Translations under genes and position numbers: made by a program
Shown: piece after piece, positions 3,494-62,058 of the stretch
How positions within the stretch are numbered: the first letter of the stretch is position 1
How the letters are laid out: each line of letters starts with the position of its first letter
Assembly (NCBI GenBank): GCA_040954595.2
Contig: CM082576.2
Span: 17,717,028 to 17,781,027 of the forward strand
Length of the DNA: 64,000 nt
DNA from: Balanoglossus misakiensis
Taxonomy: Eukaryota; Animalia; Hemichordata
Reading direction: 5' to 3'
The notes under the pieces: model-generated
What the model was told of the DNA's origin: nothing
Seen by the model: only the letters and a program-made list of their open reading frames with translations
The model's database searches: none

Positions 3494-4030
3494 TGTAACA
3501 TAAGGATATTTTGGCCCATCCGGACGTGGAGGGCGCTAATTAATGACACACCTGGTACACCTGGGTAAACTCTTTGCGCCAATAGAACTGACGTATTCAT
3601 CCGCACCACAGTATTTAAGTCTGGTGTGAAGGGGTCGAGGGGGAAGTCTTCATCCATTGGGGCAGCCAGCGGAGCTGAACTGAATTTGGGCGAGCGAATT
3701 CGGTCGTTGCCAGCAGAACTGAACGGAATTTTGTGAGCGCTTCCCGAATTCGGACATTGCCAGCGGAGCTGAACTGAATTGTGTGAGTGCTTCTTGGATT
3801 CGAATTGCCAGCAGAACTGAACGGAATTTCTGTGAGTGCTTCGCGAATTCGGACATTGCCAGCAGAACTGAACGGAGTTTCTGTGAGCGCTTCCCAATTT
3901 CTGACATTGCCAGCGGAGCTGTACTGAATTTTGGTGAGTGATTCTTGACTACGGACATTGCCAGCAGAACTGAACGGACATTGCCAGCGGAGCTGAACTG
4001 AATTTTGGTGACTGCTTCGCGAATTCGAAT
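3494..4030 (+). mobile_element. 3' LTR (first part) of the upstream Gypsy, interrupted by the Gmr1-like element
   Basis: Starts TGTAACA just after the PPT; CCAAT (~3579) and TATTTAA (~3612) precede the satellite. The LTR right end was not identified. Confidence 0.7.
3663..4030. repeat. ~45-50-bp satellite, left part
   Basis: Units like gccagcggagctgaac(tgaa)ggaattttgtgagcgcttcgcgaattcggacatt. Confidence 0.95.
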
Positions 4031-13680: not shown

Positions 13681-14421
13681 TGTTATGTAGGTTACGTTTG
13701 CTGTTGTTTTGTGACCAGGCGTGTTTTCGCTTACTTTTGTAATTTGAATATTTGCGTGACCAGGTGGGGTGCATTCATTATTTTCCCCATATAAAAAGCC
13801 CGCACGTCGTGTTGCGGCGTAGCTACTAATTTGGACTTGTCCTTATGAGCTGTTCTGTTCCTCGCCGGCTTGGAAGATGTGCCTTATTTCCTGATACACT
13901 GGTCTGGAAACCGCGCCCAGATTCTGTGCTGTATTTCATGCTGTCCTGGTCTGGGAACCGCGCCCAGAAGCTGTGTTATTTCATGCTGTCCTGGTCTGGA
14001 AACCGCGCCCCGAAGTCGTGATACCTCATGGGGAATTCGTCCGAAAGCCGTGCCGTCTACCGGGGAATTGTGCCAGAACGCTACTCGGACTGAACGTCGT
14101 TGTTGGGACTGCCGTGGTGCTGGTCGCGTTCGTCGTGCGCAACGGAAGCGTGGACTTTAGTTTTTCATTTGCCACACCTGGTCACATTTAAGGTAGTCAA
14201 TTATTTTACTGTGTTTTTTCCTCAGTGTACATTCATTTTATATGTACCAATGTTTAGTTGTAAATTAAAAGTTTCCATAAGCAAGGAAATAACGTGTGGT
14301 GTGCCTATTGCTGACGGTCTTTGTTGCGTGCTGCGCTGGTTGGTTCACCAAAGCGAGCCATTCGGTAAGTCTATTTGGTCACTGCCCTGTTTCGGAACTG
14401 AACGGCCAGCGTGTCGTAACA
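13681..14421 (+). repeat. 3' LTR of Gmr1-like element
   Basis: Direct repeat of 4031-4773. Confidence 0.97.
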
Positions 14422-15425
14422 GAATTGCCAGCAGAACTGAACGGAATTTTGCCAGCGGAGCTGAACTGAATTGTGGTGAGTGCTTCGTGAATTCGGACAT
14501 TGCCAGCGAAGCTGAAGTGAATTTTGTGAGTGCTTCTTGACTTCGGACATTGCCAGCAGAACTGAACGGACATTGCCAGCGGAGCTGAACTGAATTGTGG
14601 TGAGTGCTTCGTGATTTCGGACATTGCCAGCGGAGCTGAACGGAATTTTGTGAGCGCTTCGCGAATTCGGACATTGCCAGCGGAGCTGAACTGAATTTTG
14701 TGAGTGATTCTTGACTTCGGACATTGCCAGCAGAACTGAACCGAATTTTGTGAGCGCTTCGCGAATTCGGACATTGCCAGCGGAGCTGAACGGAATTTTA
14801 TGAGCGCTTCGCGAATTCGGACATTGCCAGCGGAGCTGAACTGAATTGTGTGAGTGCTTCTTGACTTCGGACATTGCCAGCAGAACTGAACGGAATTTTG
14901 TGAGCGCTCCGCGAATTCGGACATTGCCAGCGGAGCTGAACTGAATTTTGTGAGTGATTCTTGACTTCGGACATTGCCAGCAGAACTGAACGGAATTTTG
15001 TGAGCGCTTCGCGAATTCGGACATTGCCAGCGGAGCTGAACGGAATTTTGTGAGCGCTTCGCGAATTCGGACATTGCCAGCGGAGCTGAACTGTGTGAGT
15101 GCTTCTTGACTTCGGACATTGCCAGCAGAACTGGACGGAATTTTGTGAGCGCTTCGCGAATTCGGACATTGCCAGCGGAGCTGAACGGAATTTTGTGAGC
15201 GCTTCGCGAATTCGGACATTGCCAGCGGAGCTGAACGGAATTTTGTGAGCGCTTCGCGAATTCGGACATTGCCAGCGGGAGCTGAATGGAATTTTGTGAG
15301 TGCTTCGTGAATTCGGACATTGCCAGCGGAGCTGAACGGAATTTTGTGAGCGCTGTGTGAATTCGGACATTCGGAATACGGAATTTTTGTGAGTGCTTCG
15401 TGAATTCGAACTGCCAGCAGAACGG
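14422..15425. repeat. ~45-50-bp satellite, right part (~21 units)
   Basis: Same units as 3663-4030; resumes in register after the GAAT TSD. Confidence 0.97.
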
Positions 15426-16906
15426 AACGTTGACCATTACTTGTTTGTCTTTCATATTTTCTTTGACAAATTTATTTGGATAGATTTAATGACGTAATAT
15501 ATCTTCATAAAAAGAAAAACCTATTGTGTCTTGTCTTCTCTGCTTTCTACTCCCCACCCACCTCTTATTCATATGTACCGGAAAATTGTCAATCACCGAA
15601 CCCCAGACTGACTGCCCGTAGAAATATTTTATCTTTTCATGTTCATTCCAACGTTAGCCGGAACGAAAGTGGCTACAATACCATGAAATATCGTATAAAT
15701 CAACGGACTTCAATGAAACTGCGTTGGCATTTTTTGCAAAGTGCTTGTTATTTTAGTAAGAATAACTGCAGTCTACGGGATGTGGTTTGGACCAATGGTT
15801 CTGTGCCCGCGAATTGATGTGGGGAATCCAACATTTGCCAGTTTTCACTACTGTATTGCAGATTTTACATTCCCGAGCCAGGGTGTTCAAGTATCTTAAT
15901 TTTCTGACTTTAAATCCCTTTAGCATAAATATGAAAATCTGAATAAGGCAGGAGCGTAATTAACAAAACAATATTTGCAAAGTTGTCATTTAATGAATGG
16001 CTCCATAGAGTGCCGTGTTCCACAAAATACAAGAAACACATGTACTGTATATACTGATGACATATGCGAATTTTGGTCCAATGTCATCCAGAAGTTGGGT
16101 TAAATTTTGGGCCCGAGCTGATCCATCGTCGACAAAACGAACCCCACTGGTCATTTTTAGTATTGAATTAAATATGCACAAGAAAAAAGAAATAAAGAGA
16201 AGCCTATTATGCAGATATGGTTAATCTAAGAGAACTACTATGCAAAAGTCGCCGCACATATCCAAGTAGTCATCCAACCATTCCAAACTGTCTAATTGTT
16301 CTTGAGAAAAGGTTCTTGAAAGAAGTTTTTTCAATGATATTTGTCATATTTCGTAAACTTATATGGCCACCAAAGGAATTTTAAGAGTTGCGTGCGCGTG
16401 CCGGAGGCTTTTTTGATGACTTCACGTTTAAATTTGTAATGCAATTTCTATCTGCTATACCTGACACTCTGCGTTTCTTTTCTCCCGAATATATATTCTT
16501 CAGGAGGTCTGAAATGACATTTTAGATCGTTAAATTGCTTATATCAATATTTAACTAAATTGAATTGCCTGTAACAATTGTTCAATTCCTATCTGTCACG
16601 AACGTTTTTGCTTTTGTGTCAGAGAATTAAATGTCATTTTCTGGCATTGTTATTGTGTGGCAGGTAAATTGAAAAGGCCGTAGCTTTTGTCCGAGTTACA
16701 GGCTGTTCAGATAATCGGGCAACCAGACTTCTGTGCCTCGAAGCATACATTTTGAAGCGACTCCACATTTTCTCGGGCAGACAGGCGTATGCTCTTGAAT
16801 GGCTGGTCAATACATGGATATTGTATAAACTCATCCATCTAATCTGTTTCCTACGTACTATTAATGTCAAATAATTGTCATGCGGTATGCGTCATGTCTG
16901 TTCTGA

Positions 16907-47160: not shown

Positions 47161-47399
47161 TTAAATGAAGCATAATGAGAGGTAAGTTTTTTTAAAGGTT
47201 TGGCCATAACCTACCCCCAAGATTTGCTACACAACCTCGGCACAAGATTTGGAGATAAGCTTGGAGTAACATTTTCAACAAACAAGCTTGGCCAAACCTA
47301 CAGACGAATACCTTCGGCCAAGATTAGAGTACGGCCAAGCTTGGCCAAAGGTATTGCACAATCGCGTGTGAAGACGATGTTTGGAAGTGTGACCGGGGG

Positions 47400-48681
47400 T
47401 TGATTCCCAATGTTGGTTCCTTTCCATCACCTACAGTGTTACAGGGGACAGATTGGTGCTCACCTCTGGAATCTTTGACTTCCTTTCTGATGACCGAGCT
47501 CACCACATTCAGTGCAGATGCAACGGCTTCTCTCGGCATCCTGGACAACCCATCGACATTTGCATTACTTTTTCCTGGGCGGTATTTAATGTCAAAGTCA
47601 AACACGGCCAGCTGGGAGATCCATCGCTGACTAGTAGCATCCAGTTTGGCTGTGGTGGTTATATAAACAAGAGGATTATTGTCCGTCAGCACAGTAAATT
47701 TATTTCCATAGAGATAATCTTTAAACTTATCCGTGACCGCCCATTTTAAGGAGAGAAATTCTAACTTGTGGGCTGGGTAGCGACTTTCTGCAGGGGTAAG
47801 TCCACGGCCAGTATAAGCAATTACTCTATCTGTTCCATCTTGCCTTTGTACCAAGACTGCGCCAAGACCACTAATAGAGGCATCCACCTGTAGTGTAAAA
47901 GGGAGGGTAAAGTCAGGATATCCCAGGATCGGTGCAGTGGTGAGCTTCTGTTTTAAAAGTGAAAAAGCAGATTCACAGTCAGTCGTCCACTCAAAGGGGG
48001 GTAGTTTCACCTGTTGATTTCTACCTTTCTTCTTTCTTGCATCACCAGACAATAACCGATTCAATGGAGCAGCAATTCTTGAAAAACTTTTCACGAACCG
48101 GCGATAATAACCCGCAAAACCAAGAAACTGCAGGACTTCCCTTCTAGTTGTGGGCCGTTTCCACGCCTTGACTTTGTCTATCTTCTCCGGGTCTGTACGG
48201 ACACCATTGGTTTTCACGATATGTCCCAGGTATTTAACCTCTTGACGCAGAAACGAGCATTTCGATGGCTTTAACTTCAATCCATGGTGCCTTAGTCTAT
48301 CAAACACCATCTGCAGTCTACCAAGATGTTCATCAAAGGTTTGTGAAAACACGATTATGTCATCTAGGTATATAAGAACTGTTGCAAAGTGTTGATCCCC
48401 CAGACAGCACATCATCAAGCGAGAAAAGGTTGCGGGCGCATTCATTAAGCCGAATGGCATCCGGTTCGTTTCATAGAGACCCATGGGAGTAGTAAACGCT
48501 GTCTTGTGTCGGTCTTTCTCCGCCACTTTCACTTGCCAATATCCAGAAGTAAGGTCCAGCGATGAAAAGAACTTTGCTTTCCCCAGTGCTTCCAGAGCCT
48601 CGTCCATCCTTGGTAATGGATATGCATCCCGGACTGATCGTAGATTCAACTGTCGATAGTCAATACATATCCGAAGGCTAC
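47400..48681 (-). pseudogene. pol: Gypsy pol fragment (RT + RNase H), cut at its 5' side by the IS3EU-like element
   Basis: SLRICIDYRQLN, DLTSGYWQ, YLDD, VDAS, YPAHKLEFL, TDNNPL. The N-terminus of ORF 47324-48967 is just the neighbouring repeat. Confidence 0.92.
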
Positions 48682-48744
48682 TATGGAAAGCCATGGCTGT
48701 CTTAAGTGACATACAATTATGTTGACATGGGGATTCTTTATATA

Positions 48745-49910
48745 ATGATGTGCATACGTTATAAGGTGATGGGCATACGTTATAAGGTAATGCACATACG
48801 TTATAAGGTGATGGGCATACGTTATAAGGTGATGCACATACGTTATAAGGTGATGCGCATACGTTATAAGGTGATGCGCATGCGGTATAAGGTGATGGGC
48901 ATACGTTATAAGGTGATGGGCATACGTTATAAGGTGATGCGCATGCGGTATAAGGTGATGGGCACACTTTTTAATGTGATGTTCTTGCGTTATAAGGTGA
49001 TGCGCATAAGTTGAACGGTGATAGGCATACATAAGGTGAAGGGCATAAGTTATAAGGTGATGTGAACACTTTATAAGGTGATGCGCATACGTTATAAGGT
49101 GATGTGATCACTTTATAAGGTGATGCGCTTTCGTTATAAGGTGATGCGCATACGTTATAAGGTGATGCACATACGTTATAAGGTGATGCGCATACGTTAT
49201 AAGTTGATGGGCATATGTTATAAGGTGATGCGCAAATGTTATAAGGTGATGGGCATACATTATAAGGTGATGCGCAAATGTTATAAGGTGATGGGCATAC
49301 ATTATAAGGTGATGCACATACATTATAAGGTGATGGGCATACGTCCTTATATGGTGTGGTTACGTTATAAGGTGATGGGCATACGTCGTTATATGGTGTG
49401 GTTACGTTATAAGGTGATGGGCATACGTCGTTATATGGTGTGGTTACGTTATAAGGTGATAGGCATACGTCGTTATATGGTGTGGTTACGTTATAAGGTG
49501 ATGGGCATACGTCGTTATATGGTGTGGTTACGTTATAAGGTGATGGGCATACGTCGTTTCTGGTGTGGTTACGTTATAAGGTGATGGGCATACGTCGTTT
49601 CTGGTGTGGTTACGTTATAAGGTGATGGGCATACGTCGTTATATGGTGTGGTTACGTTATAAGGTGATGGGCATACGTCGTTATATGGTGTGGTTACGTT
49701 ATAAGGTGATGGGCATACGTCGTTATATGGTGTGGTTACGTTATAAGGTGATGGGCATACGTTATAAGGTGATGCGCATACGTTATAAGGTGATGGGCCT
49801 ACGTTATAAGTTGATGCGCATACGTTATAAGGTGATGCGCATACGTTATAAGGTGATGGGCCTACGTTATAAGGTGATGCGCATACGTTATAAGGTGATG
49901 GGCATACGTT
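48745..49910. repeat. Left subterminal 21-bp array with 42-bp higher-order block
   Basis: cgttataaggtgatg(c/g)gcata tandem units; alternate with cgtcgttatatggtgtggtta at ~49340-49740. Confidence 0.97.
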
Positions 49911-50195
49911 TTTTTGTGATGGACATATGTTACACTGTGGTATACATTTGTTATTCTATAATATGCATTTATTATAATTTGATGTGCATTTCTGATAATG
50001 TGATGTGAATATGTTGTGTTGTAAGATGGATTTGGCTCATGTTGTACTTTTGTTAAATGATGTGAAATGTGCATCATATTGTGGTGTTTAATTCTGATGT
50101 AGAAGTCAGGGACTACCCAGAATGCATTTCTACAGACATGCTCAGTCCAGTTTATTTGTAGCTTGTGAGAGTACATACATGCTACTGATGTCATA

Positions 50196-51467
50196 ATGGC
50201 AACCTCTACATGTATTGGAAATATATTGGACCCACTAGGTTTGGGACACCTCTCTGATAAATTCACTTATGAGAAAATAACCCCTGCCATGGTATGTAAA
50301 TTATCAGTTGTAGACATGGAGACACTTGGCCTGAACAATAGAGCTGATATGATGGCACTGCGTGTTGCTTGCGTTAAATTTGGAGGAAAAGCACCTGCTA
50401 AAGCATTGGGACTCAATGGTGGTGCTCCTCTGTTTAACATTCCAAAATGTGTGTTGGAGCATCTTCTTGATGAAGAATTTAATATTGCTGATGTCGCATC
50501 AATGTTATCTGTTTCTGAGAGTACCATTTACCGAAGAATGAGACAGTATGGTCTTAGTAAAATGGACTTCTCAGATATAAGTGATGAGGACCTTGATGTC
50601 AATATCAGGCAGCTAACTTCTGATTTTCCATATTGTGGTGAAAACCTGATTAGGCAGATGTTACATGCTAAGGGGATCAAGGTCCAAAGGATGAGGTTGA
50701 GAGACAGCATCCACCGTGTTGATAGCATTGGTGTTGAATCAAGGAAGAAAGGCCGCTTACAGAGGCGTATATATAATGTCCAAGGACCAAACCACTTATG
50801 GCACATCGACACAAACCACAAGCTTGTGAGGTGGCATTTTATAGTATTTGGAGGAATCGATGGTTTCAGTCGCCTACCTGTTACTTTATCGTGTATAGAT
50901 AACAACCAGGCATCTACCCTGTTGCAGCTCTTTATGGCTGGTGTTGAGAAGTACGGCCTACCCAGTCGTGTGAGATCAGACATGGGTTTGGAAAACATAG
51001 ATATAGCGGAGTATATGGTCACAAATAGAGGCCCAAACAGGGGGAGCATGATAACAGGTAAAAGTGTCCATAATCAACGAATTGAAAAGCTTTGGAAGGA
51101 CGTCTATGAAGGAGTGCTAAGTCTGTACTATCAACTATTCCACTTCATGGAGGATAATGGCATCCTTGATCCACTAAATGAATTACACATAGCTGCACTT
51201 CACTATGTATTCATGCCAAGGATCAATGAAAAGCTGGAAACATGGAGGAATGCCTGGTCTCGCCACAGAATGCGCACAACGAAATCATCTCCACATCGAC
51301 TGTGGATTTCTGGGCAGTTTCAGGATCCTGTGGGGATAGAGGAGATTTCTTTGGATGGATATGGTGTTGAAGGCATTGTCTATGGTGATGAGACAGAACA
51401 AGAGGCTGATACAAGACCATCAGCCATCATTTTCAAAGTGCTGCCAAATTCCAGAGGAATTGAATGA
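50196..51467 (+). CDS. IS3/IS481-type DDE transposase with N-terminal SAM-like domain and HTH
   Basis: SAM-like [17 protein letters not shown]....CKLS..DMETLGL...AD...LR; [23 protein letters not shown]; core [41 protein letters not shown]. The C-terminus may be shortened. Confidence 0.9.
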
Positions 51468-51937
51468 CTATGTCAACATGAAAAGTTCGCAAGTTCAAAC
51501 CCATAGTTCATACAATGGGTAAATACACCATCCTGAAAAGAATTTTCTCATGTTTTGACCACATACATTATGTCAGGAAATACAATCTTGAACCAAGTCT
51601 ATCTCTCTGTAAATAAGTAAAACACATTTATGCAGTCCTTTGGTTAAATTTGTTGCACATGTTTAAAGGCCCAGTAACACAAATTTTGGCCATTTAAGTA
51701 CTTTGTATTTGTAAACACAAGGTTGCTATAAAATATAAAAGCAAAACGTACATATATGAGAGATATTCCCAATAAACTATGAAAGTGAGCACTTGCCCAA
51801 GTTTCTGCATACAACGATTGTTTATCTTTCTCTGTGTCAACACAAGTAGCTTCAACAGTACCTCTACGAGTATGGTGAGAACATACATCTATCACTAAGC
51901 CTCCAAGGTTTAGGAGAATTGTGCTTCAATAGCTTAA

Positions 51938-52556
51938 AGGGGAAATCCGTCGTAGCTGATTTCTACATAATTTGGTAGCTTTGATGTCACTCTTTCAGAA
52001 AAAAAACATATTCGCCATGTATAGGTCGCGCGATTTTTTACAAAATCTAGGGAAAGTTGGCAGAATTTCCAATATGGCGTTTACTGTAATTTGAATCATG
52101 GGAAAAAAAGCGCCAGGACCAACTTCCGCCCACCATGGTGTGGGTGATACCATTCTCCGATAGGTGTCACTGGGCGACAGACTAGGCGTATTTTCATAGC
52201 TATTGTTTGTTCTTTGCATCAGTTGATAAACAATCATCAGCAAAGTCGAAAATTTGTCATCTATTGACAGTTTTCATGAGCTATAACCCATGGAAAATAT
52301 GCAAATACGCTTAGCTTGTGACGCAGTGACACCCATCGGAAAATGGTATCACCCACACTAAGGCGGGCGGAAGTTGGTCCTGGCGCTTTTTTCCCATGAT
52401 TCAAATTACAGTAAACGCAATATTGGAAATTCTGCCAACTTTCCCTAGATTTTGTAAAAAATCGCGCGACCTATACATGGCGAATATGTTTTTTTCTGAA
52501 AGAGTGACATCAAAGCTACCAAATTATGTAGAAATCAGCTACGACGGATTTCCCCT
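51938..52556. mobile_element. Kolobok-like foldback MITE with ~220-bp TIRs
   Basis: TTAA TSD; aggggaaatccgtcgtagctgatttctac... near-perfectly inverted at the right end. Confidence 0.85.
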
Positions 52557-53562
52557 TTAACACTCTCACCATACTCATATAGTCTTTGTTATACCCTGAC
52601 TGTGCCGTGAACCTCATTTCCAGCCGTCCCTACAGTCTGGGGAATTCCCATTGAACAGTTTCTTCACAAAGATGGCCGACTGCAGACAAAAGCTATGCTT
52701 CTTGGAAGCCAGTAAGGAGCTCACATAAAAATGTAAAAGTGACTTTCAAAGTCCATTGCACTTATCTGTCACTGGTAACTGATAAATGATTGCACAAATG
52801 CTAGAGAGAATCCTGTAAAATGATACCACTCGTATGGGCTTTACTAGCTCCCAAGGTGCATCGCTTTTGTCTATAGTCTTGGTGAAGATTTCCTCCTTGA
52901 CTCTAAAAATACCTAGACCCTCCTTTTTTTGCTTCAACCCCACATTACAGTCGAACAGTCCCTATATGACATACTCAAGGTAGTCCAAGAATGTTGTTTG
53001 GTCATCACACATTGCCAAAATATGCAGTGGTAAATGCAAGGTCATAAAAAGAAAACAATCTGGCACTGGTTGGTAGTGGGCAGCTGATAGTTGGCCTTGG
53101 TAACTTCAGACAGTTGATGCAGGTGTTAGCTGTAGGTATGAATGATGTGCTGAATTCCACAAATACAATTGTGGGATGGATAACAAATCCAAGGGCAGGT
53201 TCTTCATCAGCCCCTGTTGTGAACTGTAGAACACTTGCAAGTGACACTTTACTTCTTCTGCCACCTTGAACAAATCAAAAGTAGTATGAAATGTTAGTCT
53301 GACACAATAGCCCGAGAGATAATACAATTTTTTACAGCTAGCTTTCTAAAGTCAACAATTGTGAATAAGCCTGTTCACATCAAAACCATGATGTGCATAT
53401 GTAGGCCATAGTGCATCACCTATTTGCCAAATTTGAACAAAATCAGTTTAGGGGTGACAAATGTTAATGGACGATGGTCAGACGACAATGGACAGTGTCT
53501 ATCTATCTGATAAGCTCCGGGTCACTGACAGTGGAGCTATGAAATTCATTAAAATATAGAAA

Positions 53563-53927
53563 ACTAGAGGTATCTTCACAAAATGAACAAAACTATACGG
53601 GGCCACTCCAGAAACTCTCACAGCAGTTTTCAATGCAATCAGCCCAATGGTTGCTGAGTTTCTAATTTTTGACCATTTTCACATTTTGGGGGTAATCTGC
53701 ATACTTTGATAGTGACAATATTGTTTTAACAAAATCCCATCAAAAACCCAGCATGCACTTAAACACCAAATGAAAAGATGAAACATGCAGTCGTTCTTAA
53801 GTTTTTGCAGTGGATAGACAGACATACCAGTACATACATACCGGTACATACAGACAGAGAGACATACAGACAATGGATGCTGTCTTACACTATAAGCTCA
53901 TTGGTATCGCAAATGTGAGCTATAAAT
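53563..53927 (+). mobile_element. HINE/Helentron-like non-autonomous repeat in intron
   Basis: aactagag start, (acag/acat)n microsatellite, terminal hairpin agctcat...gtgagct followed by A-rich end. Confidence 0.45.
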
Positions 53928-56317
53928 ACCGAGTGAACAACTTACTTGCAACTTCTCTGAGGTATTTTAAGAACAGAGAACACTGTATTTTCAAGTGTTC
54001 TTGTGTTTGAACCTTCTACACTGAAGACATGGGTCAGAAGAGATGTCACCTTCTTAATCATTAAAGCACTTGAAGGATTTGGAATAAAAAGATGAAGGAA
54101 GGTTGGTATTCCAATGCAAATCTGAAAATAGGAGATTGATTTGAAAAGATTAATGATGAAGTCACTGAAGAGATTTATTAAAGCCACACTGAAACACTGG
54201 GCAAAGACTCTTCTGCTGAACATTCTACATTGAAATGCCTATATATTTCAGAAATTGTTTCAAAAACTGTATCAAGTTTTGACCACTATCCACTGCATTT
54301 CTGTTACATTTTCCCTCCATACACTAACACCCTGAAACATTTCAAAATTATGAAATTTCTTAGTTACCAAAATACGAAAAGCTTCATGTGATCATTCTGT
54401 TACTTTGCATGGTGAGAAATGGAGAGTGAAAGTACCTGGTAGATTCCTAGTTTAGCAAGACCATTCCGCAAATGAAGAATGCATGGAGATGGGTCACTAC
54501 TGTGGAATAACTCGTCAACAATGTCTGTGCCCATAAACTGGGGGAGCTTCCCATTTTGTAGAATGCTTAAACCTGTTGCCATGAATAAACAGAAATTATT
54601 ACAAATAAAAAAAGTGTAAAACATTTTCAGACTTAAAGTAACTTATTGGAATTTTTTTCATTCTATTTTAAACCAGTGATGACTTCTGAAAATTTGGTTC
54701 GAAGAATTTTCTAAATTATATCAAGCATTGCAAGCCTTGTTGGCAAGTCATTAAAGGGACAATGTTACTCATTTCAGAGCAATTATTGCATACTGTTTAT
54801 AAACGTTGAAAAGTTTTCATGCTCATAAGTAAGCCAAAAATTGAATGTTTGTTTAAAAACCATACACGTACAACTCAAAAATCAGTTGGTTATAAGTTTC
54901 AGCATTTTCTTACGCAGGTTTGCATTTTCCAGATGACCACTGTTTGAGGCATGTTTCCATGGTAACAAGCAAAATAACCACACTTCTTAACATCAATTTG
55001 AAGTCTCAAAATGAGTTAAATAATGAAATACTGTGCTAATGTTAACATTAAATACAAATAATAATTTTCATGCAAATGACAAGGGATTTGAAATTTGTCG
55101 ATTTCAGCTTCCTTCACTATACCACAATATGTGTATCAAGTAAATATGGCATTATATCTTAAAATATGCATGCTTGTGTTTTCCTTGTACTTTTCAAGCC
55201 ACTGTGTATTTGCAAATAAAGTCACACACAAGCTAGCAGAACTTTCTAATGATGCAAATTTGAGCTTGGGGACAATGAAAAATATAACAATAAAACCAGA
55301 TAAAGCAAATTATATTACTCACCCATATATATTCCAACTTTGTAGTATTCTTCAGCAAGGTGTTCTCTGAGACCTTCATCAAAAAAATGTTCTTTGATTG
55401 CTCTTAGTATCAAAACAAAGAACTCTTTTCTGGGGCCACCAAAGTCACGTGCTCTCTGTTGAGTACAAAAAGGCACATTAGCTGTTAAAGAATATACTAG
55501 AGTAGAAATTTATGAACAATCAAGTGTTGCTCAAATGTTTACAAAATGAAATCAATACTGTAAATGAGAATAAACGCAAACTGATAAACTTTCTCTCATA
55601 ATAATAGTTTTGCAGTGTACAAATGGCAGAAAACATCCTAAAAATGTCATACCGATTTTACCCAGGGTTAGGAATAACTGATAGAGACGTAGATTTCACT
55701 GAAATTGACCGAATCCAGATAACCTGATAAAAACAATTTATCTAGACTTATCTGACTTATTACTAGACTTGTTACACTTACAGTGAGTTTTTGTTGACAA
55801 AATATATAAGTTGATGTAAACACAAAAATATTCAGTGCGAAAACATAAATTATACTGGAAGTGACTGACATTCAAATTAACCATTTGGTGTAATCTTACC
55901 TCATCATAAAACTGGACTTCCAGAGTTTTTCTCAAGTCTTCCATGGAACTTATTTCGTCAAATGCTGTTGTCAAAATATCTGCTCTGTTGACAATAATGA
56001 AGTTTGTGTCACCATAATCAGTCTCACTCTCTGACTCAACATCCAGACATCTACCAGTTACCATGGCTCTCTGAAAATATCTCAGGACTTCTATTGGGTT
56101 GGAAATACTGTGATGCTGACAGTATTCAATGGTTTGTTTGGCAATGTTATCGACAGTTTCTTCTGTGTCAGATGTAGACTGTAAATAAAAGATTAATTAA
56201 TATTACCATTAAATCATAAACAACTTTACTTTAACATCCAGAATAAAATATAATATAAGTACACAGACAGTGATGATAGTTTTAGATGAGATAAACTTCA
56301 CAATTTAATTATCTTAA

Positions 56318-56652
56318 AGGGGCAGTGAAAAACAGGGAAAACAAAAGGTGATGTGAGTTGAATTTTAGGAAAGAGTGCAAAGCTTAGTGCTCCTGTCACT
56401 TGAAGGCAGAGGACATTTTATGTTGTTCAACTCGCACCACTTTTTGTTTTCCAATTTTCAAACAAAACAGTATGGATAAATGGCAGGGATTACTTCTGCT
56501 GGATAACTGGACCTAAACTATGAAAAACAGCCTCGCCAATCATCCCCTTTAAACCTTTCACCACCATGGTTTGTCCTAAATCCATTTTTCTCTATGGTAA
56601 AGTTGGGCCTGTACATGGGGAAATGGGGGTGAAAGGGTTAAGGCACTGTCCT
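56318..56652. mobile_element. Kolobok-like MITE containing a piggyBac-like mini element (56553-56637)
   Basis: ttaa-aggggcagtg...cactgtcct-ttaa; inner ttaa-acctttcacc...ggtgaaaggg-ttaa. Confidence 0.55.
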
Positions 56653-58230
56653 TTAATTTACTTGCTGTGATCCTGATTTTCATTGGGACAATAATTCTCA
56701 TTGAATATACAAATCCATGTAGGCCTAATATACATGTTTAATGTGTATACTTACATTGCTATCTCCATTTCGAGAGAGATCGACTGTTTCCCCAGTGCTA
56801 GGCTGTAATATTTCCAGGTCATCATCTGGCGTCTCAGCAGAGTTTGCTTGCGCTAGTGTTTCTCCACCATGTCTTTCTTGAGTATCTGCTACCAGCTGTG
56901 GTGGGGGTGGGAGGTCATCTTCGGAATCAGAAGTTATCAGCAGTGTACCGGTACAAGTCTCAATGTGTTCACGCAAATCATGCATGGGGAATTCAGTGTT
57001 ACAGCTTTTGCATGTCTCCTTCAAGGCAGACGAGGAACTTCCAGTGCCAGCATTTAAATCTTTGGTGCTAAGATTTTTCTGGATAGGCCTTATGTATAGT
57101 TTAGCCTGGGCACCAACATGACCTTTCAACTCAGGCACATTCCACGCACATTTCAGTTCATTCAGCTCACGGCAGCCACTGCTACAATGCAAAAGTTCGA
57201 ATCCGCCACAGTCTAGCAGCTGGGGATAAGCACTGGTGATTTTGCTTAATACTTGACTTTCGTCGTCCTCTGCAAAAAGGGTGACCTTCTTGTCACCAAG
57301 CCCTGCCCTAAATAGTATCTGTCTCTCGACGGTCGTCGGAAGTTTTTTTGCATACCTGTCTGCTAGACACATAAATCTAACAGTCCACGTTCTCGTGCCT
57401 CGATCCCTCGTGCTGCTTCTCTTTCTCTTTCCTCCCCTCCTTCCGCCACTTCCTCTACTAGGCTGAAAGAGAAGGGTTGTCTCTCTACGAACAGTTGTAG
57501 CACTTGTAGAACTTGTTTGTGCCTGGTTTACAGCAATGTCGCACATTTCACGCAGGTCAAACCGATCACCAACCCTTGTGACCCCTACTCGTTTGAGTTC
57601 ATCATCAGTCATTGCCGCCACTGTTCTTGGCTCAATACGTTCATTTTGAAACACAGGCCACAACGTAGACAACCCGAGTCTGGTTAGAATGTTTTCCATC
57701 ATGGTATAACGCTTTATACACAGTGGCCTGATAAGACTTTCACTCGGCTAGTTATACTTTGCGAAACAACAAAACGGCGAAACAGCGAAACGACGAAACC
57801 ATTATTAAAATAGGGGCCAGTCATCAAGACGGTGGCGTATGATTTTTTTAAAAGTTTTCAAATTAAAACGTAAGCGAGCCAAGAAAACTACAGGTCAGAT
57901 AAATTATTTTCTCGGAAATTCAACATTGGAATCAAATTTGGCGTGGGAAACAAACGGCGGGGCGCCAGTTCCTGGTCTGCGGCCTGGTACTATGTAGTGG
58001 TAGAGTCGACGTCGTGTGCTGACAGGCGAATTGCCCGCCAAAAAAGAATCCCGCCCCAAAAGGTCAATGTACGAGTATATTCACAGGGCGAAAGATTAGT
58101 TGAAACAAAGCAGTAGTGTCCGTACTGATGGGGGGTAAGAGTAGTAGTTATATATAGAAACACATGTAATAACTCACACAACACAGTATCATTTCACTCA
58201 GCACCACGTGTGTCACACGTTCGTGAAGTT

Positions 58231-58667
58231 GGCCTCATCCTCAGCTTCGTGACCTCAGGAAGATTAATACTGTCCAAATGTCCAAACAGTCGAGTCGAGA
58301 ACGATTGGAAAATAGAACAAATAGAGTCAAAATAAGAAATCCAATCAATTAGTTAGACTATCCCATGAAAATACTTTACCTATATTGCTTTCGCTTCTTT
58401 TAGATCACATCAATTATCCGAAATTTACGATAATTTTGATTCTTTATTGACATGTTTTTTTGCAATAACCTTTGACCTTGAAGCAATTTTCTCTCGGGAG
58501 TTTCTTATGCGCTGCTATAAAGCATTTAAAAACCAGAAGTCGTATCCGTATTTACATTTATCCAAGTCAGTGAAAGAAATGATATTATTTAAATATTATC
58601 TTCAAGTTTAACGAATCGCCGATGTTGTTATTAATCTTCCTGAGGTCACGAAGCTGAGGATGAGGCC
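58231..58667. mobile_element. MITE with ~39-bp perfect inverted repeats
   Basis: ggcctcatcctcagcttcgtgacctcaggaagattaata and its reverse complement. Confidence 0.7.
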
Positions 58668-58711
58668 GGCGAATATGAGGATGCGGGTAAGGCCAACATC
58701 ACGACCAGCTA

Positions 58712-58822
58712 ATAACGACGTAACCACACCATATAACTACGTATGCCCATCACCTTATAACGTAAGCGCATCACCTTATAACGTAGGCGCATCAACTTAT
58801 AACGTATGCGCATCACCTTATT
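58712..58822. repeat. Right subterminal 21-bp array (inverted) of IS3EU-like element 1
   Basis: cgtatgc(g/c)catcaccttataa x4 and taaccacaccatataac, reverse complements of the left-array units. Confidence 0.92.
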
Positions 58823-58861
58823 ACGGTAGCCCGTATGTGACAGACCAATTCACTAATTAAA

Positions 58862-59280
58862 TGTACACAACTTTAATTTTGTCCCGACAAAACTCTCTAA
58901 TTGGTGGACACAACTCTAACTTTGTCGGACAAAACTCTCTAATTGGTGGACACAACTCTAACTTTGTTGGACAAAACTCTCTAATTGGTGGACACAACTC
59001 TAACTTTGTCGGACAAAACTCTCTAATTGGTGGACACAACTCTAACTTTGTCGGACAAAACTCTCTAATTGGTGGACACAAAACTCTCTAATTGGTGGAC
59101 ACAACTCTCACTTTGTCGGACAAAACTCTCTAAATTTGTCGGACACAACTCTCAAATTGATGGACACAACTCTAATTTCGCCTGACACAGCCCTTTATTT
59201 GTTGGACACAACTCTAATTTTGATGGGCGCAACTTTCTAATTTTGTCGGACACAACTCTTATTCGCGTGGACAAAACTTT
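58862..59280. repeat. Subterminal 42-bp (2 x 21) array of element 2
   Basis: ttgtcggacaaaactctctaa-ttggtggacacaactctaact tandem units, degenerating rightwards. Confidence 0.95.
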
Positions 59281-59402
59281 CTTTTGCTCAAGGCGGAAAT
59301 TCACTATATATCCCACAATACAGTTCGCGTCAACGTCACTGGATATTACTGCCATTTGAGTCTGATGCAGGAGATGGAGTTACACTACATCCTTCAAACA
59401 AA

Positions 59403-62058
59403 ATGTCGAAATTTATTCGTGTAACTGACAAAGTCAGGACCGGCGAAGCAGTCGAACTTCCAACAGAGGAAAATGGGACAGTTTTACTCAGTACATTGGA
59501 AGGTCAGTTTCCCGGTGCATGTGGCCTGAGATATTCAGTGCGTCACGATCGTGGTGGCTCAGTTGTGAGAGGAATTCGGATGGAAGAACGTGTTTTCTAC
59601 GCACCGTCCTGTGGATGGGACGGCGTTGATCTATATGTTGTATATTCCGATGACAGAAGAAAAGGTGAGTGGTGAAATTATGGCAATAATTGGTGATCGT
59701 TTCGGATGTGATTTACATGAAGGGACGCGGACGTTGGACGGATGGACGCACGCGGTCTGCTGTAAAGAAAGGTTGCCAAGCTGACAAAAATCAGAATAAT
59801 TTGCCCTGAGTGTCGGTAGTTTTTAGAAGTCTATAGTTGGAGCCTAGTTTTCTGAAAATTCTGATTTTCACCGAAGGTGTATAGATGAGAAAACAACTGA
59901 AGAAGAAAAGGCTAATTACTAGTAGTTTCATGTTTGTACATGTGTGCAGCTAGGTGTAATCAGCAATATTAGCGCCAAAATGTAGCATTTCTGTGAGGTG
60001 AGGCATTGTAACAAAATTGTTCTACCACATTCGCTACAGTGGGGTCATAGTAAACATTGTCTGTTGCTGTATATGTTGTGACGTGATTAAATTTCGATGT
60101 CATGTTCTAACAAATATTCATTTGGTGTTTTAGTTTCAGTTACTGAGGAATGCAGGAAAGGTGTTGGTCTATTTGGCAAAGTCAAATCTTTCCAGACTTA
60201 CAAAAATGAGAAGACCTCCTCTGACTTCAGAAAACTGCCTTTTTCCAGTAGCAAGAAGAAATCAAAGCAAGAAGATGACATTGTTACTATAAATATTGGT
60301 GCCATGTCTTTCGATGAGAAAACAGGGAAACTGAAATCCCACTGGGGTAAACGTTTGCCTATTAAAGTTGAAAAAAATGCAAATTACTCAACAATTTTGG
60401 AAATTGGTTTGAGTAAATGGAAAGCTTTTGGGAGAAATTTTATCAAGGATGGCATGAAGTATTTTCTTCTCTTTGATGATGGCTCTAGAGCTCTTTTCAT
60501 ACCAGGAGAAGAGAAAAAAGAGTTTTTTACTCTTTGTAAATATAAAGAAGCTTTAGGTAAGGAGTACAAAAGAATATGCTTGTATCTCTGTGCAGAGAGT
60601 GATTTTGATAAATCGCAGGGATTTAATGATTGTGATGTAGGAGTTGATGATGAGTTGCTTTGTAATTATGATGTTGACGAAAGTAATTGTAATTATGATG
60701 TTGACGAAAGTAATTCTAATTATGATGTTGACAAAAGTAATTGTAATTATGATGTTGACAAAAGTAAGAGGAGGAGAGTGAAATTGGGTGAGACGTCCAA
60801 CACAAGTCAAACTCATGTAGTGTCTGATGATGGATATGCCATGCTTTTCAGTGATGACATTGGTGATCAATTCTCTGATTCCGAAAATGATGTCAATCTA
60901 GAGTCTCCTAAATTCCCTGAAGAAATACCACTTGAAGATATTCTGAGTAATTTGGCAAAACAGATTAACCAAGAAAAAATATCAAAGTTTAACATTGCAA
61001 GGAATAATCTTTTTGAAGGTGTGAAAAGAGGGTTAAAGCGAAAGACATTTAGTCCTTGCAATAAACTCTCTGTCAAACTTACAGATGATGTGGGTTCCTC
61101 AGAGGGGGCTGTTGATGCTGGAGGCCCTATGAGAGAAATGCTGTCTCTCAGTGTGAGCTATATCACACATTCTCAGTTGTTTGATGGTGATGAACATCAG
61201 AAATACATTTCCTGTGTGAGCAAATGTATTGATGAGAATGAATACTTCTATGCTGGGCAAGTGATTGCCATGTCTTTACTTCATGGGGGTCCTCTACCAC
61301 ATTGTTTTGCTGAGCACTTTTTTGATGCTGTTGTATTTGGGCCAGACAGTGCAAAACCTACATTGGATGACCTCCCACAGGATAGTTATGCTAAAAATGA
61401 GTTGACAAAGTTGAAGAATGCCCCTTTAACTGAGGTTGATAGTGTGGTAACTGGAAGCTTGGATAATTTCCTTGAATTAGCTGGGACATGGAAAATAATG
61501 AGATGTGAAGATGACAAAGATAGGGTTATCCTGTCCACAGTAAAGTGGTATTTATATGGAAGGAACAGACCAGCACTTGACTAATTTAGAGACGGTCTGT
61601 CTACCCTTGGAGTTCTTGCAGCCATGCAGCAGTATCCAAATAGTTTCAAGTCAGCATTCTGCCAAAAAAGCATCACTCTCACAGCAGATATGTTTGCTGA
61701 TGTTGACAGGGTAAAATACACAAGAAGTGAAATTGGATCTAATAGACACATTGTTGAAAGTAATGTATTATCCTACTGGGCAGACTTTCTTCAGGATGTT
61801 GAAGAGGGTGAAGTTTCCAACATAACACTTTCACAAATTCTCATGTTCATTACTGGTTGCAGTGAATTTGTGTATGGATTAACATTAGAAATTCAATTTC
61901 TACATCAAAATGAGGAAACTGGTACACCATCAAGGTTTCCTAAGGCCAATACTTGTGCTTGTATACTTCATTTACCTGTTATACATAAAACATACCATGA
62001 CTTCAAAAACGATGTTGCATTTGACATTGCAAATGCTAAGGGTTTTGGATATGCCTGA
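59403..62058 (+). pseudogene. Two-exon TDP-43-N-terminal-domain - HECT E3 ligase fusion, one premature stop
   Basis: Exon 1 59403-59664 (donor AAAG|GTGAGT, phase 1); exon 2 from 60134 or 60140 (both in phase). HECT motifs SEGAVDAGGPMRE, YFYAGQVIAMSLLHGGP, ILMFITG, FPKANTC, FGYA*. Single in-frame TAA at 61582. Confidence 0.87.
60661..60767 (+). repeat. 27-bp coding tandem repeat (CNYDVDESN x4)
   Basis: tgtaattatgatgttgac(g/a)aaagtaat x4. Confidence 0.9.

What the first reader, a model, noticed from the sequence alone, without database searches (positions are those of the whole stretch)
59403..62058. TDP-43 N-terminal domain fused to a HECT ligase inside a DNA transposon
Seen: exon 1 encodes [44 protein letters not shown]...RGIRMEERVFYAPSCGW....YVVYSDDRRK. 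This closely matches the TDP-43 NTD as I recall it ([43 protein letters not shown]...[33 protein letters not shown]). It splices in phase to a HECT ORF and has no RRMs. Established: the TDP-43 NTD oligomerises head-to-tail, and TDP-43 is implicated in repressing transposable elements. Inference: either the ligase co-polymerises with host TDP-43 and ubiquitinates it (anti-silencing), or the NTD replaces SAM as the tag pairing ligase and transposase.
Basis: partly seen in the sequence, partly recalled or inferred. Interest (0 to 1): 0.92.

Follow-up and report, generated by a model that had tools for sequence, protein, structure and literature searches.

The report
Transposon ligase with captured TDP-43 domain
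A jumping gene in an animal genome carries a copy of the chain-forming domain of TDP-43, the ALS protein, predicted to be spliced onto the transposon's own ubiquitin ligase, which would likely let the ligase join and tag the host's TDP-43; this particular copy is broken by a stop codon.

Summary
Observation confirmed, with two corrections. 59403-59664 encodes a true TDP-43 N-terminal domain (NTD; Pfam E 6e-19; model matches 6B1G/5MDI) with no RRMs. A phase-1 intron is predicted to join it to a ubiquitin-like domain plus HECT. A Ptychodera flava gene model has the same NTD-UBL-HECT chain. No RNA was available. The gene lies in an IS3EU/GingerRoot transposon that starts at 58822 and leaves the window.

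Correction 1: this copy has a stop at 61582, before the catalytic Cys, and a broken transposase; a contig of the same sample is open at 61582.

Correction 2: the SAM genes belong to a neighbouring element. In this clade the NTD replaced a zinc ribbon (7 of 9 readable relatives), and 0 of 34 related transposases carry SAM or an NTD, so the 'pairing tag' idea fails.

All six head-to-tail interface residues are kept while other charged residues drift. Best reading: the NTD threads the ligase into TDP-43-type chains, likely including the host's (0.5); ubiquitination of TDP-43 is untested. This scan has found the IS3EU-HECT pair before on other DNA, but not the NTD fusion.

The parts
58822..58832 (+). 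Left terminus of element B (IS3EU/GingerRoot, TAYGG type); the element runs past 64000
   Evidence: 10 of 11 bases identical to the termini of complete relatives L018 and L034, 8 of 11 to L071; the reverse reading from 58835 gives 7 of 11. One chance match elsewhere in the window (32208), so the position, not the motif alone, carries it. An X2 contig leaves the window at 58821 and an X3 contig end matches 23 of 30 bases from 58823 on (counted by eye)
58816..58821 (+). Predicted left copy of the 6-bp target-site duplication, inside the right-hand 21-bp array of element A
   Evidence: Inference from 6-bp TSDs in 3 complete relatives; the second copy is outside the window and untested
58865..59282 (+). 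Subterminal 21/42-bp tandem array of element B
59403..59664 (+). Exon 1: TDP-43 N-terminal domain (87 codons + 1 base), E14/E17/E21/Q34/R52/R55 equivalents kept, insertion in the beta3-beta4 loop
59665..60139 (+). Predicted phase-1 GT-AG intron, 475 nt (469 nt with the alternative acceptor)
   Evidence: spacing against P0001; one X1 DNA contig spans 59395-60214; no RNA evidence
60271..60615 (+). Ubiquitin-like (beta-grasp) domain, no Pfam family, shared with relatives' cargo genes
   Evidence: Model pLDDT 90; best VIA Z 8.8 USP11 UBL, rmsd 3.1 over 87 residues, many UBL folds tied; no Foldseek hit at E<=0.001; found in 10 of 80 related loci
60660..60767 (+). Four 27-bp in-frame repeats in an acidic linker
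61168..62058 (+). G2E3-like HECT domain; catalytic Cys motif at 61954-61956 (motif role recalled); stop 62056-62058
   Evidence: 14 of 22 relatives keep the same P-x-A-N-x-C motif (several of the others are truncated)
61582..61584 (+). Premature in-frame stop in this copy
   Evidence: the one contig laid here (X2) reads a sense codon
63486..64000 (-). C-terminal part of element B's DDE transposase (Pfam rva_4), tail to tail with the ligase gene; broken by a frameshift and a stop; N-terminus outside the window

Best explanation
This is the cargo gene of an IS3EU/GingerRoot DNA transposon whose first exon encodes a TDP-43 N-terminal domain, likely captured from the host in place of a zinc ribbon, and predicted to thread the attached HECT ubiquitin ligase into head-to-tail TDP-43 chains, likely including the host's own. 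Shown: the NTD identity and fold, the UBL and HECT domains, the element context, the zinc ribbon in relatives, the kept interface residues, and the stop in this copy. Inferred: the splice (about 0.9); one capture in an acorn-worm lineage (about 0.75); head-to-tail polymerisation (about 0.75); mixed chains with host TDP-43 in cells (about 0.5); ubiquitination of TDP-43 or its partners to the element's benefit (about 0.25-0.3). Intact sister copies would do this work, not this copy.
For: NTD: Pfam E 5.9e-19, fold match to 6B1G/5MDI. Fusion: P. flava model P0001 holds NTD (63% identical), UBL and HECT N-lobe (62%) in one chain. Context: 26 of 80 loci with related transposases carry a HECT, all 26 tail to tail on the opposite strand (17 of 31 with at least 2 kb of room); 0 of 80 carry an NTD. 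Ancestral module: a zinc-ribbon-like CxxC...CxxC start in 7 of 9 readable UBL loci (above Pfam cut-off in 2 of 6 scanned), inside and outside the window's transposase clade. Interface: Afroz 2017 (PMC5491494, passages) names E14, E17, E21, Q34, R52, R55; the window, P0024 and P0001 keep all six. Charged interface residues are kept 5 of 5, other charged residues 3, 2 and 1 of 13 (Fisher p 0.007, 0.003, 0.0007). The same paper needed both faces mutated to stop mixing with endogenous TDP-43 and likens the polymer to DIX domains, which heteropolymerise.
Against: No RNA shows the junction. Keeping both faces fits self-polymerisation equally well. The interface positions are also the most conserved in host NTDs (131-137 of 141 rows for five of them, 102 for E14), so the Fisher test is not independent of fold constraints. 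The N45/S48 loop, part of one face and sensitive to change (PMC5830921, passages), is remodelled in all four element-type NTDs. The Saccoglossus protein P0087 has K at both E21 and R55 (3 of 5 kept, p 0.18), and its genomic context is unknown. No hemichordate host TDP-43 was identified, and the donor is unresolved (AU p 0.27 and 0.36). Relatives manage with a zinc ribbon, so TDP-43 is not the family's general substrate. This copy and, by its truncated model, P0001 look decayed.
Confidence: 0.5

Rival explanations
1. The NTD is a self-polymerising scaffold only. It clusters the ligase into its own chains, as SAM may do in the neighbouring element, and the substrate is the transposase or chromatin, not TDP-43.
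For: Both faces are kept. The neighbouring element uses another polymerising domain, SAM, at the same place. The remodelled loop and a more basic surface (K+R 10-11 against 6-7 in five host NTDs) could favour self over host. RRM-less proteins with tandem NTDs exist in nematodes and insects. Earlier scan notes report models docking IS3EU ligases on their transposase (unchecked leads).
Against: The module it replaced, a small zinc ribbon, is not a known polymeriser (recalled). A purely private polymer could let both faces drift together, yet host-type charges are kept in three of four sequences that are 63-76% identical.
Confidence: 0.3
2. The exon is a passenger. It supplies a start codon, a donor site and a basic tail, and the fold is kept without a binding role.
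For: IS3EU/GingerRoot elements are known to pick up host gene fragments (PMC6839031, passages). The known copies are decaying, and the element NTDs have long branches.
Against: Open frame, fold and interface residues persist across sequences 63-76% identical, with selective retention of interface charges.
Confidence: 0.1
3. The NTD is a tag shared by ligase and transposase, replacing SAM.
For: In neighbouring element A both proteins start with related SAM domains (33% over 51 residues, E 1e-4).
Against: 0 of 34 close transposase relatives have SAM or an NTD; no NTD in 80 related loci; none of the 150 listed NTD hits shows a transposase fusion in the part I read; the module replaced was a zinc ribbon.
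Confidence: 0.04
4. The NTD aims the ligase at a competing retroelement protein, not at TDP-43.
For: The N-terminal domain of mouse TDP-43 mediates binding to L1 ORF1p (PMC9683724, passages). The window is packed with retroelements.
Against: Shown in mammals only; the binding surface is not mapped in what I read; nothing here tests it.
Confidence: 0.04
5. Exon 1 belongs to a host TARDBP gene or pseudogene and only lies next to a transposon ORF, or the join is an assembly error.
For: No RNA junction was seen.
Against: The exon lies 581 bp inside the terminus, behind the subterminal array. One DNA contig spans exon 1 to exon 2. P0001 has the fusion in another genome. The element NTDs share a loop insertion and group apart from host NTDs.
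Confidence: 0.02

Closest known systems
IS3EU/GingerRoot superfamily of DNA transposons (Repbase; PMC10045372 passages and supplement part 12 of 18; PMC6839031 passages)
   Same: TA-starting terminus of TAYGG type, 6-bp TSD in complete relatives, rva_4 DDE transposase with the NQRIE motif, second gene on the opposite strand, capture of host gene fragments.
   Different: The passages read do not mention a HECT cargo (0 occurrences in either main text). None mentions a TDP-43 domain.
TET+ IS3EU of rust fungi (Kojima 2025, PMC12730594, passages)
   Same: IS3EU with captured host-type enzymes proposed to help escape silencing; a partner gene (alpha-kinase) opposite the transposase.
   Different: Cargo is TET/JBP and a kinase acting on DNA methylation, not a ubiquitin ligase with a polymerising host domain.
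TDP-43 (TARDBP) N-terminal domain, Pfam PF18694, PDB 5MDI/6B1G
   Same: Fold, 37 of 79 identities to the human-type sequence, all six main interface residues, followed by a phase-1 intron.
   Different: No RRMs or low-complexity tail; insertion in the S48 loop; less acidic; intron about four codons further downstream than in most host genes; fused to UBL-HECT inside a transposon.
G2E3-like HECT ligases (database label of P0002, P0017)
   Same: HECT domain with the C-lobe cysteine motif; 49% identical to P0002 over 413 columns.
   Different: Transposon-borne; first module is a TDP-43 NTD; this copy is truncated by a stop.
VANC anti-silencing proteins of Arabidopsis VANDAL transposons (PMC5735166, PMC10398659; search listing and start of abstract only)
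   Same: Precedent for a DNA transposon's second protein countering host silencing.
   Different: VANC binds transposon DNA; here the proposed target is a host protein, by ubiquitination, and it is untested.

Membership tests
IS3EU/GingerRoot | Termini TA..TA (TAYGG..CCRTA in fungal families) | tested here: met
   Left end only: 10 of 11 bases as in complete relatives L018 and L034; right end outside the window
IS3EU/GingerRoot | 6-bp target-site duplication | tested here: inconclusive
   Present in the 3 of 80 related loci with both ends; only one end of this element is in the window
IS3EU/GingerRoot | IS3/IS481-like DDE transposase | tested here: met
   Remnant hits rva_4 at E 1.2e-5 (25.6 bits, just under the cut-off of 26); 34 of 34 relatives are rva_4; their core motifs read like IS3EU-1_HM and AD_GR-003 in the PMC10045372 supplement (by eye; no tree with Repbase rows was built)
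TDP-43 N-terminal domain (PF18694) | Profile match above cut-off and the NTD fold | tested here: met
TDP-43 N-terminal domain (PF18694) | Head-to-tail interface residues | tested here: met
   E14, E17, P19, E21, Q34, L41, R52, G53, R55 kept; N45/S48 loop altered
TDP-43 N-terminal domain (PF18694) | Polymerises in solution or cells | not testable with these tools
   Needs bench work; no complex model was obtained
TDP-43 orthologue (TARDBP) | Two RRMs after the NTD | tested here: not met
   No RRM in exon 2 or in P0001
HECT E3 ligase (PF00632) | Full HECT domain with catalytic cysteine | tested here: met
   Profile 11-304 of 306, 45.8 bits against 23.9, with X at the stop; Cys motif present
HECT E3 ligase (PF00632) | Intact reading frame in this copy | tested here: not met
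   Stop at 61582-61584; open in an X2 contig
SAM-paired IS3EU (as element A) | The same N-terminal domain on transposase and cargo | tested here: inconclusive
   0 of 34 relatives have it, but this element's own transposase start is outside the window

The most novel reading that the evidence does not exclude
Acorn-worm IS3EU transposons evolved a natural TDP-43 degrader: a captured NTD that co-polymerises with host TDP-43 and brings a HECT ligase to ubiquitinate it, lifting TDP-43-dependent repression of the element. That would show TDP-43 acting as a transposon restriction factor across deuterostomes, with a dedicated counter-defence.
Probability: 0.25. Interest if true: 0.92.

Novelty: new variant of a known kind. 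Interest (0 to 1): 0.72.

Why it matters
Transposons that capture a host domain often point at the host pathway they must get past. Here the captured piece is the polymerising domain of TDP-43, placed in front of a ubiquitin ligase and kept with its interface residues in several related elements. If it binds host TDP-43, it is evolutionary evidence that TDP-43 guards genomes against DNA transposons far outside mammals, and a natural example of an NTD-guided degrader of a protein central to ALS and FTD. If it only self-polymerises, it still shows that the IS3EU cargo ligase, whose function is unknown, swaps its first module (zinc ribbon, SAM, TDP-43 NTD). That makes the ligase's role testable with a well-mapped interface.

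Tried and rejected
No whole genome is held for this window, so copy number, the right end, the second TSD and the host TARDBP gene could not be read. No RNA holder was listed; this is no evidence on expression. The three DNA runs are one sample of one study and may be the window's source; contig depth was not used as copy number. Flanks of other copies at the left end were not seen beyond. The complex-prediction service was not available, so there is no model of the pair; a pass would have leaned on 5MDI/6B1G anyway. A metagenome scan with exon 2 found nothing (116 stretches, 0 confirmed). The ESM Atlas gave only unnamed eukaryotic clusters for the UBL domain and no NTD-HECT cluster. Reading 58835 as the right end of element A was considered and rejected (7 of 11 against 10 of 11). 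Element A's transposase does not find the remnant of B by tblastn, nor B's HECT that of A: different clades. Eight of the 150 listed NTD hits were Ig/cadherin-repeat false positives and were dropped; 264 of the 414 hits were not listed. The tree of all 134 distinct NTDs (quick) put two long-branch Meloidogyne rows among the element rows (2 changes). With 39 rows that I chose, leaving such rows out, the four formed one side at 90/82, below the starred level. Ten HECT, IS3EU and TDP-43 literature searches were run; no listed title or abstract start described an NTD-HECT fusion or a HECT cargo in IS3EU. Repbase Reports and the Kojima 2019 review were not available and may describe the cargo.

Full report
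Observation. The sequence shows an ATG at 59403, a 262-nt exon ending at 59664 with a GT donor, and two AG acceptors that both keep the frame (exon 2 from 60134 or 60140). The 87 residues match Pfam TDP-43_N at E 5.9e-19 over the whole profile. An AlphaFold model built on 37 sequences (pLDDT 88) finds 9 PDB chains at E<=0.001, all TDP-43 NTD (best 6B1G and 5MDI, TM about 0.8). Pfam reports no RRM in either exon. Exon 2 holds a 115-residue beta-grasp domain (model pLDDT 90; best Z 8.8 to the USP11 UBL, rmsd 3.1 over 87 residues, with many ubiquitin-like folds tied), an acidic linker and a HECT domain (profile 11-304 of 306, E 8.3e-12).

This copy is dead. A TAA at 61582-61584, codon 569 of 727, lies before the C-lobe cysteine at 61954. 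The only contig laid over that base (run X2) reads a sense codon. Of the 40 differences that one search showed (68 more were not shown), 7 fall in exon 2. All 7 change the residue, and the contig letter gives the relatives' residue or a closer one, for example F in 20 of 20 relatives where the window has L. The eighth, in exon 1, goes the other way. So less decayed copies or alleles probably exist in the same sample. The three runs are one sample and may be the window's source.

The fusion is not peculiar to this copy. A search of longer proteins with exon 1 gave 1 hit among 82 candidates: P0001, a Ptychodera flava model of 512 residues with NTD (63% identical), UBL and HECT N-lobe (62%) in one chain. 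Its spacing favours the 60140 acceptor. A full HMMER search gave 414 hits, 150 listed; 142 of these hold an NTD. Two share the window's loop insertion: P0024 (unnamed, 76%) and P0087, a 106-residue RRM-less Saccoglossus kowalevskii model. In a careful tree of 39 rows that I chose, the four form one side (90/82; window, P0024 and P0001 at 99/91). In the quick tree of all 134 rows two long-branch nematode rows broke the group. The donor is unresolved. The host is likely an acorn worm (inference from these hits, and from element A's transposase reading like Repbase IS3EU-1_SK in the PMC10045372 supplement). Whether P0087 sits in a transposon is unknown.

Two elements, not one. Element A has a SAM-transposase (50169-51467, +) facing a SAM/zinc-finger/HECT gene (from 57696, -), between inverted 21-bp arrays. 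The NTD gene lies outside A, in element B. B starts at 58822, has its own 21/42-bp array (58865-59282), and its transposase remnant (rva_4, frameshift and stop) faces the ligase from 63486 to the window's end. With an alignment of B's transposase relatives I fetched 80 of 463 confirmed metagenome loci. 26 of 80 carry a HECT, always tail to tail (17 of 31 with at least 2 kb of room), 10 carry the same UBL domain, none an NTD. Three have both ends and a 6-bp TSD; B's first 11 bases match two of them at 10 of 11. These are the features given for IS3EU/GingerRoot in PMC10045372 and PMC12730594 (passages). B appears to have inserted into A's right-hand array.

What the NTD replaced. Of the 10 UBL loci, 9 could be read upstream. 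Seven begin with a small zinc ribbon (Pfam above cut-off in 2 of 6 scanned, weaker in 4); two show none. They occur both inside and outside the transposase clade that holds B (54 of 80 loci in the tree), so the zinc ribbon is the parsimonious ancestor. In L005 and L018 the ribbon is its own exon ending in Lys plus one G before GT, the same phase and the same ending as the window's exon 1. Host TARDBP genes also have a phase-1 intron after the NTD: 60 of 94 short read-through ORFs show the tell-tale Gly, 54 of them 12 residues after the conserved Trp. In the element type it is 16-17 residues after. So the phase is the same but the place is not, and the donor may be the transposon's own.

How it likely works. 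The TDP-43 NTD forms head-to-tail chains through E14, E17, E21, Q34 on one face and R52, R55, N45, S48 on the other (PMC5491494, PMC5830921, passages). The window, P0024 and P0001 keep E14, E17, E21, Q34, R52 and R55, while only 1-3 of 13 other charged residues survive. That points to selection on chain formation. It does not tell self chains from mixed chains. The N45/S48 loop is remodelled, and P0087 has lost the E21-R55 pair. Because the charges stay host-like and TDP-43 is an abundant nuclear protein (established knowledge), mixed chains are likely; I put them at 0.5. The step from there to ubiquitinating TDP-43 as anti-silencing rests on L1 repression in mouse (PMC9683724, passages) and is inference, about 0.25-0.3. 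A self-polymerising scaffold, parallel to SAM in element A, is the main rival (0.3).

Novelty. Ten literature searches listed nothing on an NTD-HECT fusion. The main texts of PMC10045372, PMC12730594, PMC11934779 and PMC6839031 hold no 'HECT'; I saw passages only, and for PMC10045372 a supplement search and one part of 18. This scan has noted the IS3EU-HECT pair 12 times in at least 6 genomes, but nothing like this exon. RRM-less NTD proteins exist in nematodes and insects, none seen with a HECT. Verdict: a real, new variant of a known kind of element; interest 0.72.

Noticed in passing
window 48746-58821: Element A: a second IS3EU with related SAM domains on both its transposase (50169-51467, +) and its multi-exon HECT cargo (from 57696, -; also a C2HC/UBZ finger). 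Its left end is missing.
   Followed up: partly
window 47324-49955: A's left 21-bp array runs without a stop into a Gypsy-type reverse transcriptase/RNase H frame on the minus strand (548 aa), probably a rearrangement junction.
   Followed up: no
window 57776-58190 and about 58300-58590: Short stretches with contig depth tens to hundreds of times above their surroundings, probably MITE-like inserts upstream of A's cargo gene.
   Followed up: no
window 59464-61391: At 7 of the 8 listed coding differences from the run contigs the window letter is C; unexplained (private mutations, another copy, or polishing bias; the table was cut).
   Followed up: partly
window 59646-59664; P0087 C-terminus: The basic residues ending exon 1 resemble the first residues of the host's next exon, which may hint at capture from spliced RNA. 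Weak; the hemichordate host gene was not seen.
   Followed up: no
P0028, P0029, P0031, P0032, P0080, P0101: RRM-less proteins with two or three tandem TDP-43 NTDs in Meloidogyne, Bradysia and Gryllus; P0031 ends in what looks like a trypsin-like domain (by eye).
   Followed up: partly
L018:1981-7960, L034:55-5166, L071:296-3180: Complete IS3EU elements with terminal repeats and 6-bp TSDs in metagenome contigs; L018 and L034 carry the zinc-ribbon/UBL cargo.
   Followed up: partly
window 1-44000: Dense nest of LTR retrotransposons (Gypsy-, Copia- and Pao-like), DIRS-like and LINE-like frames, with 50-bp arrays at 3683-4027 and 14399-15429; labels by eye, not scanned.
   Followed up: no
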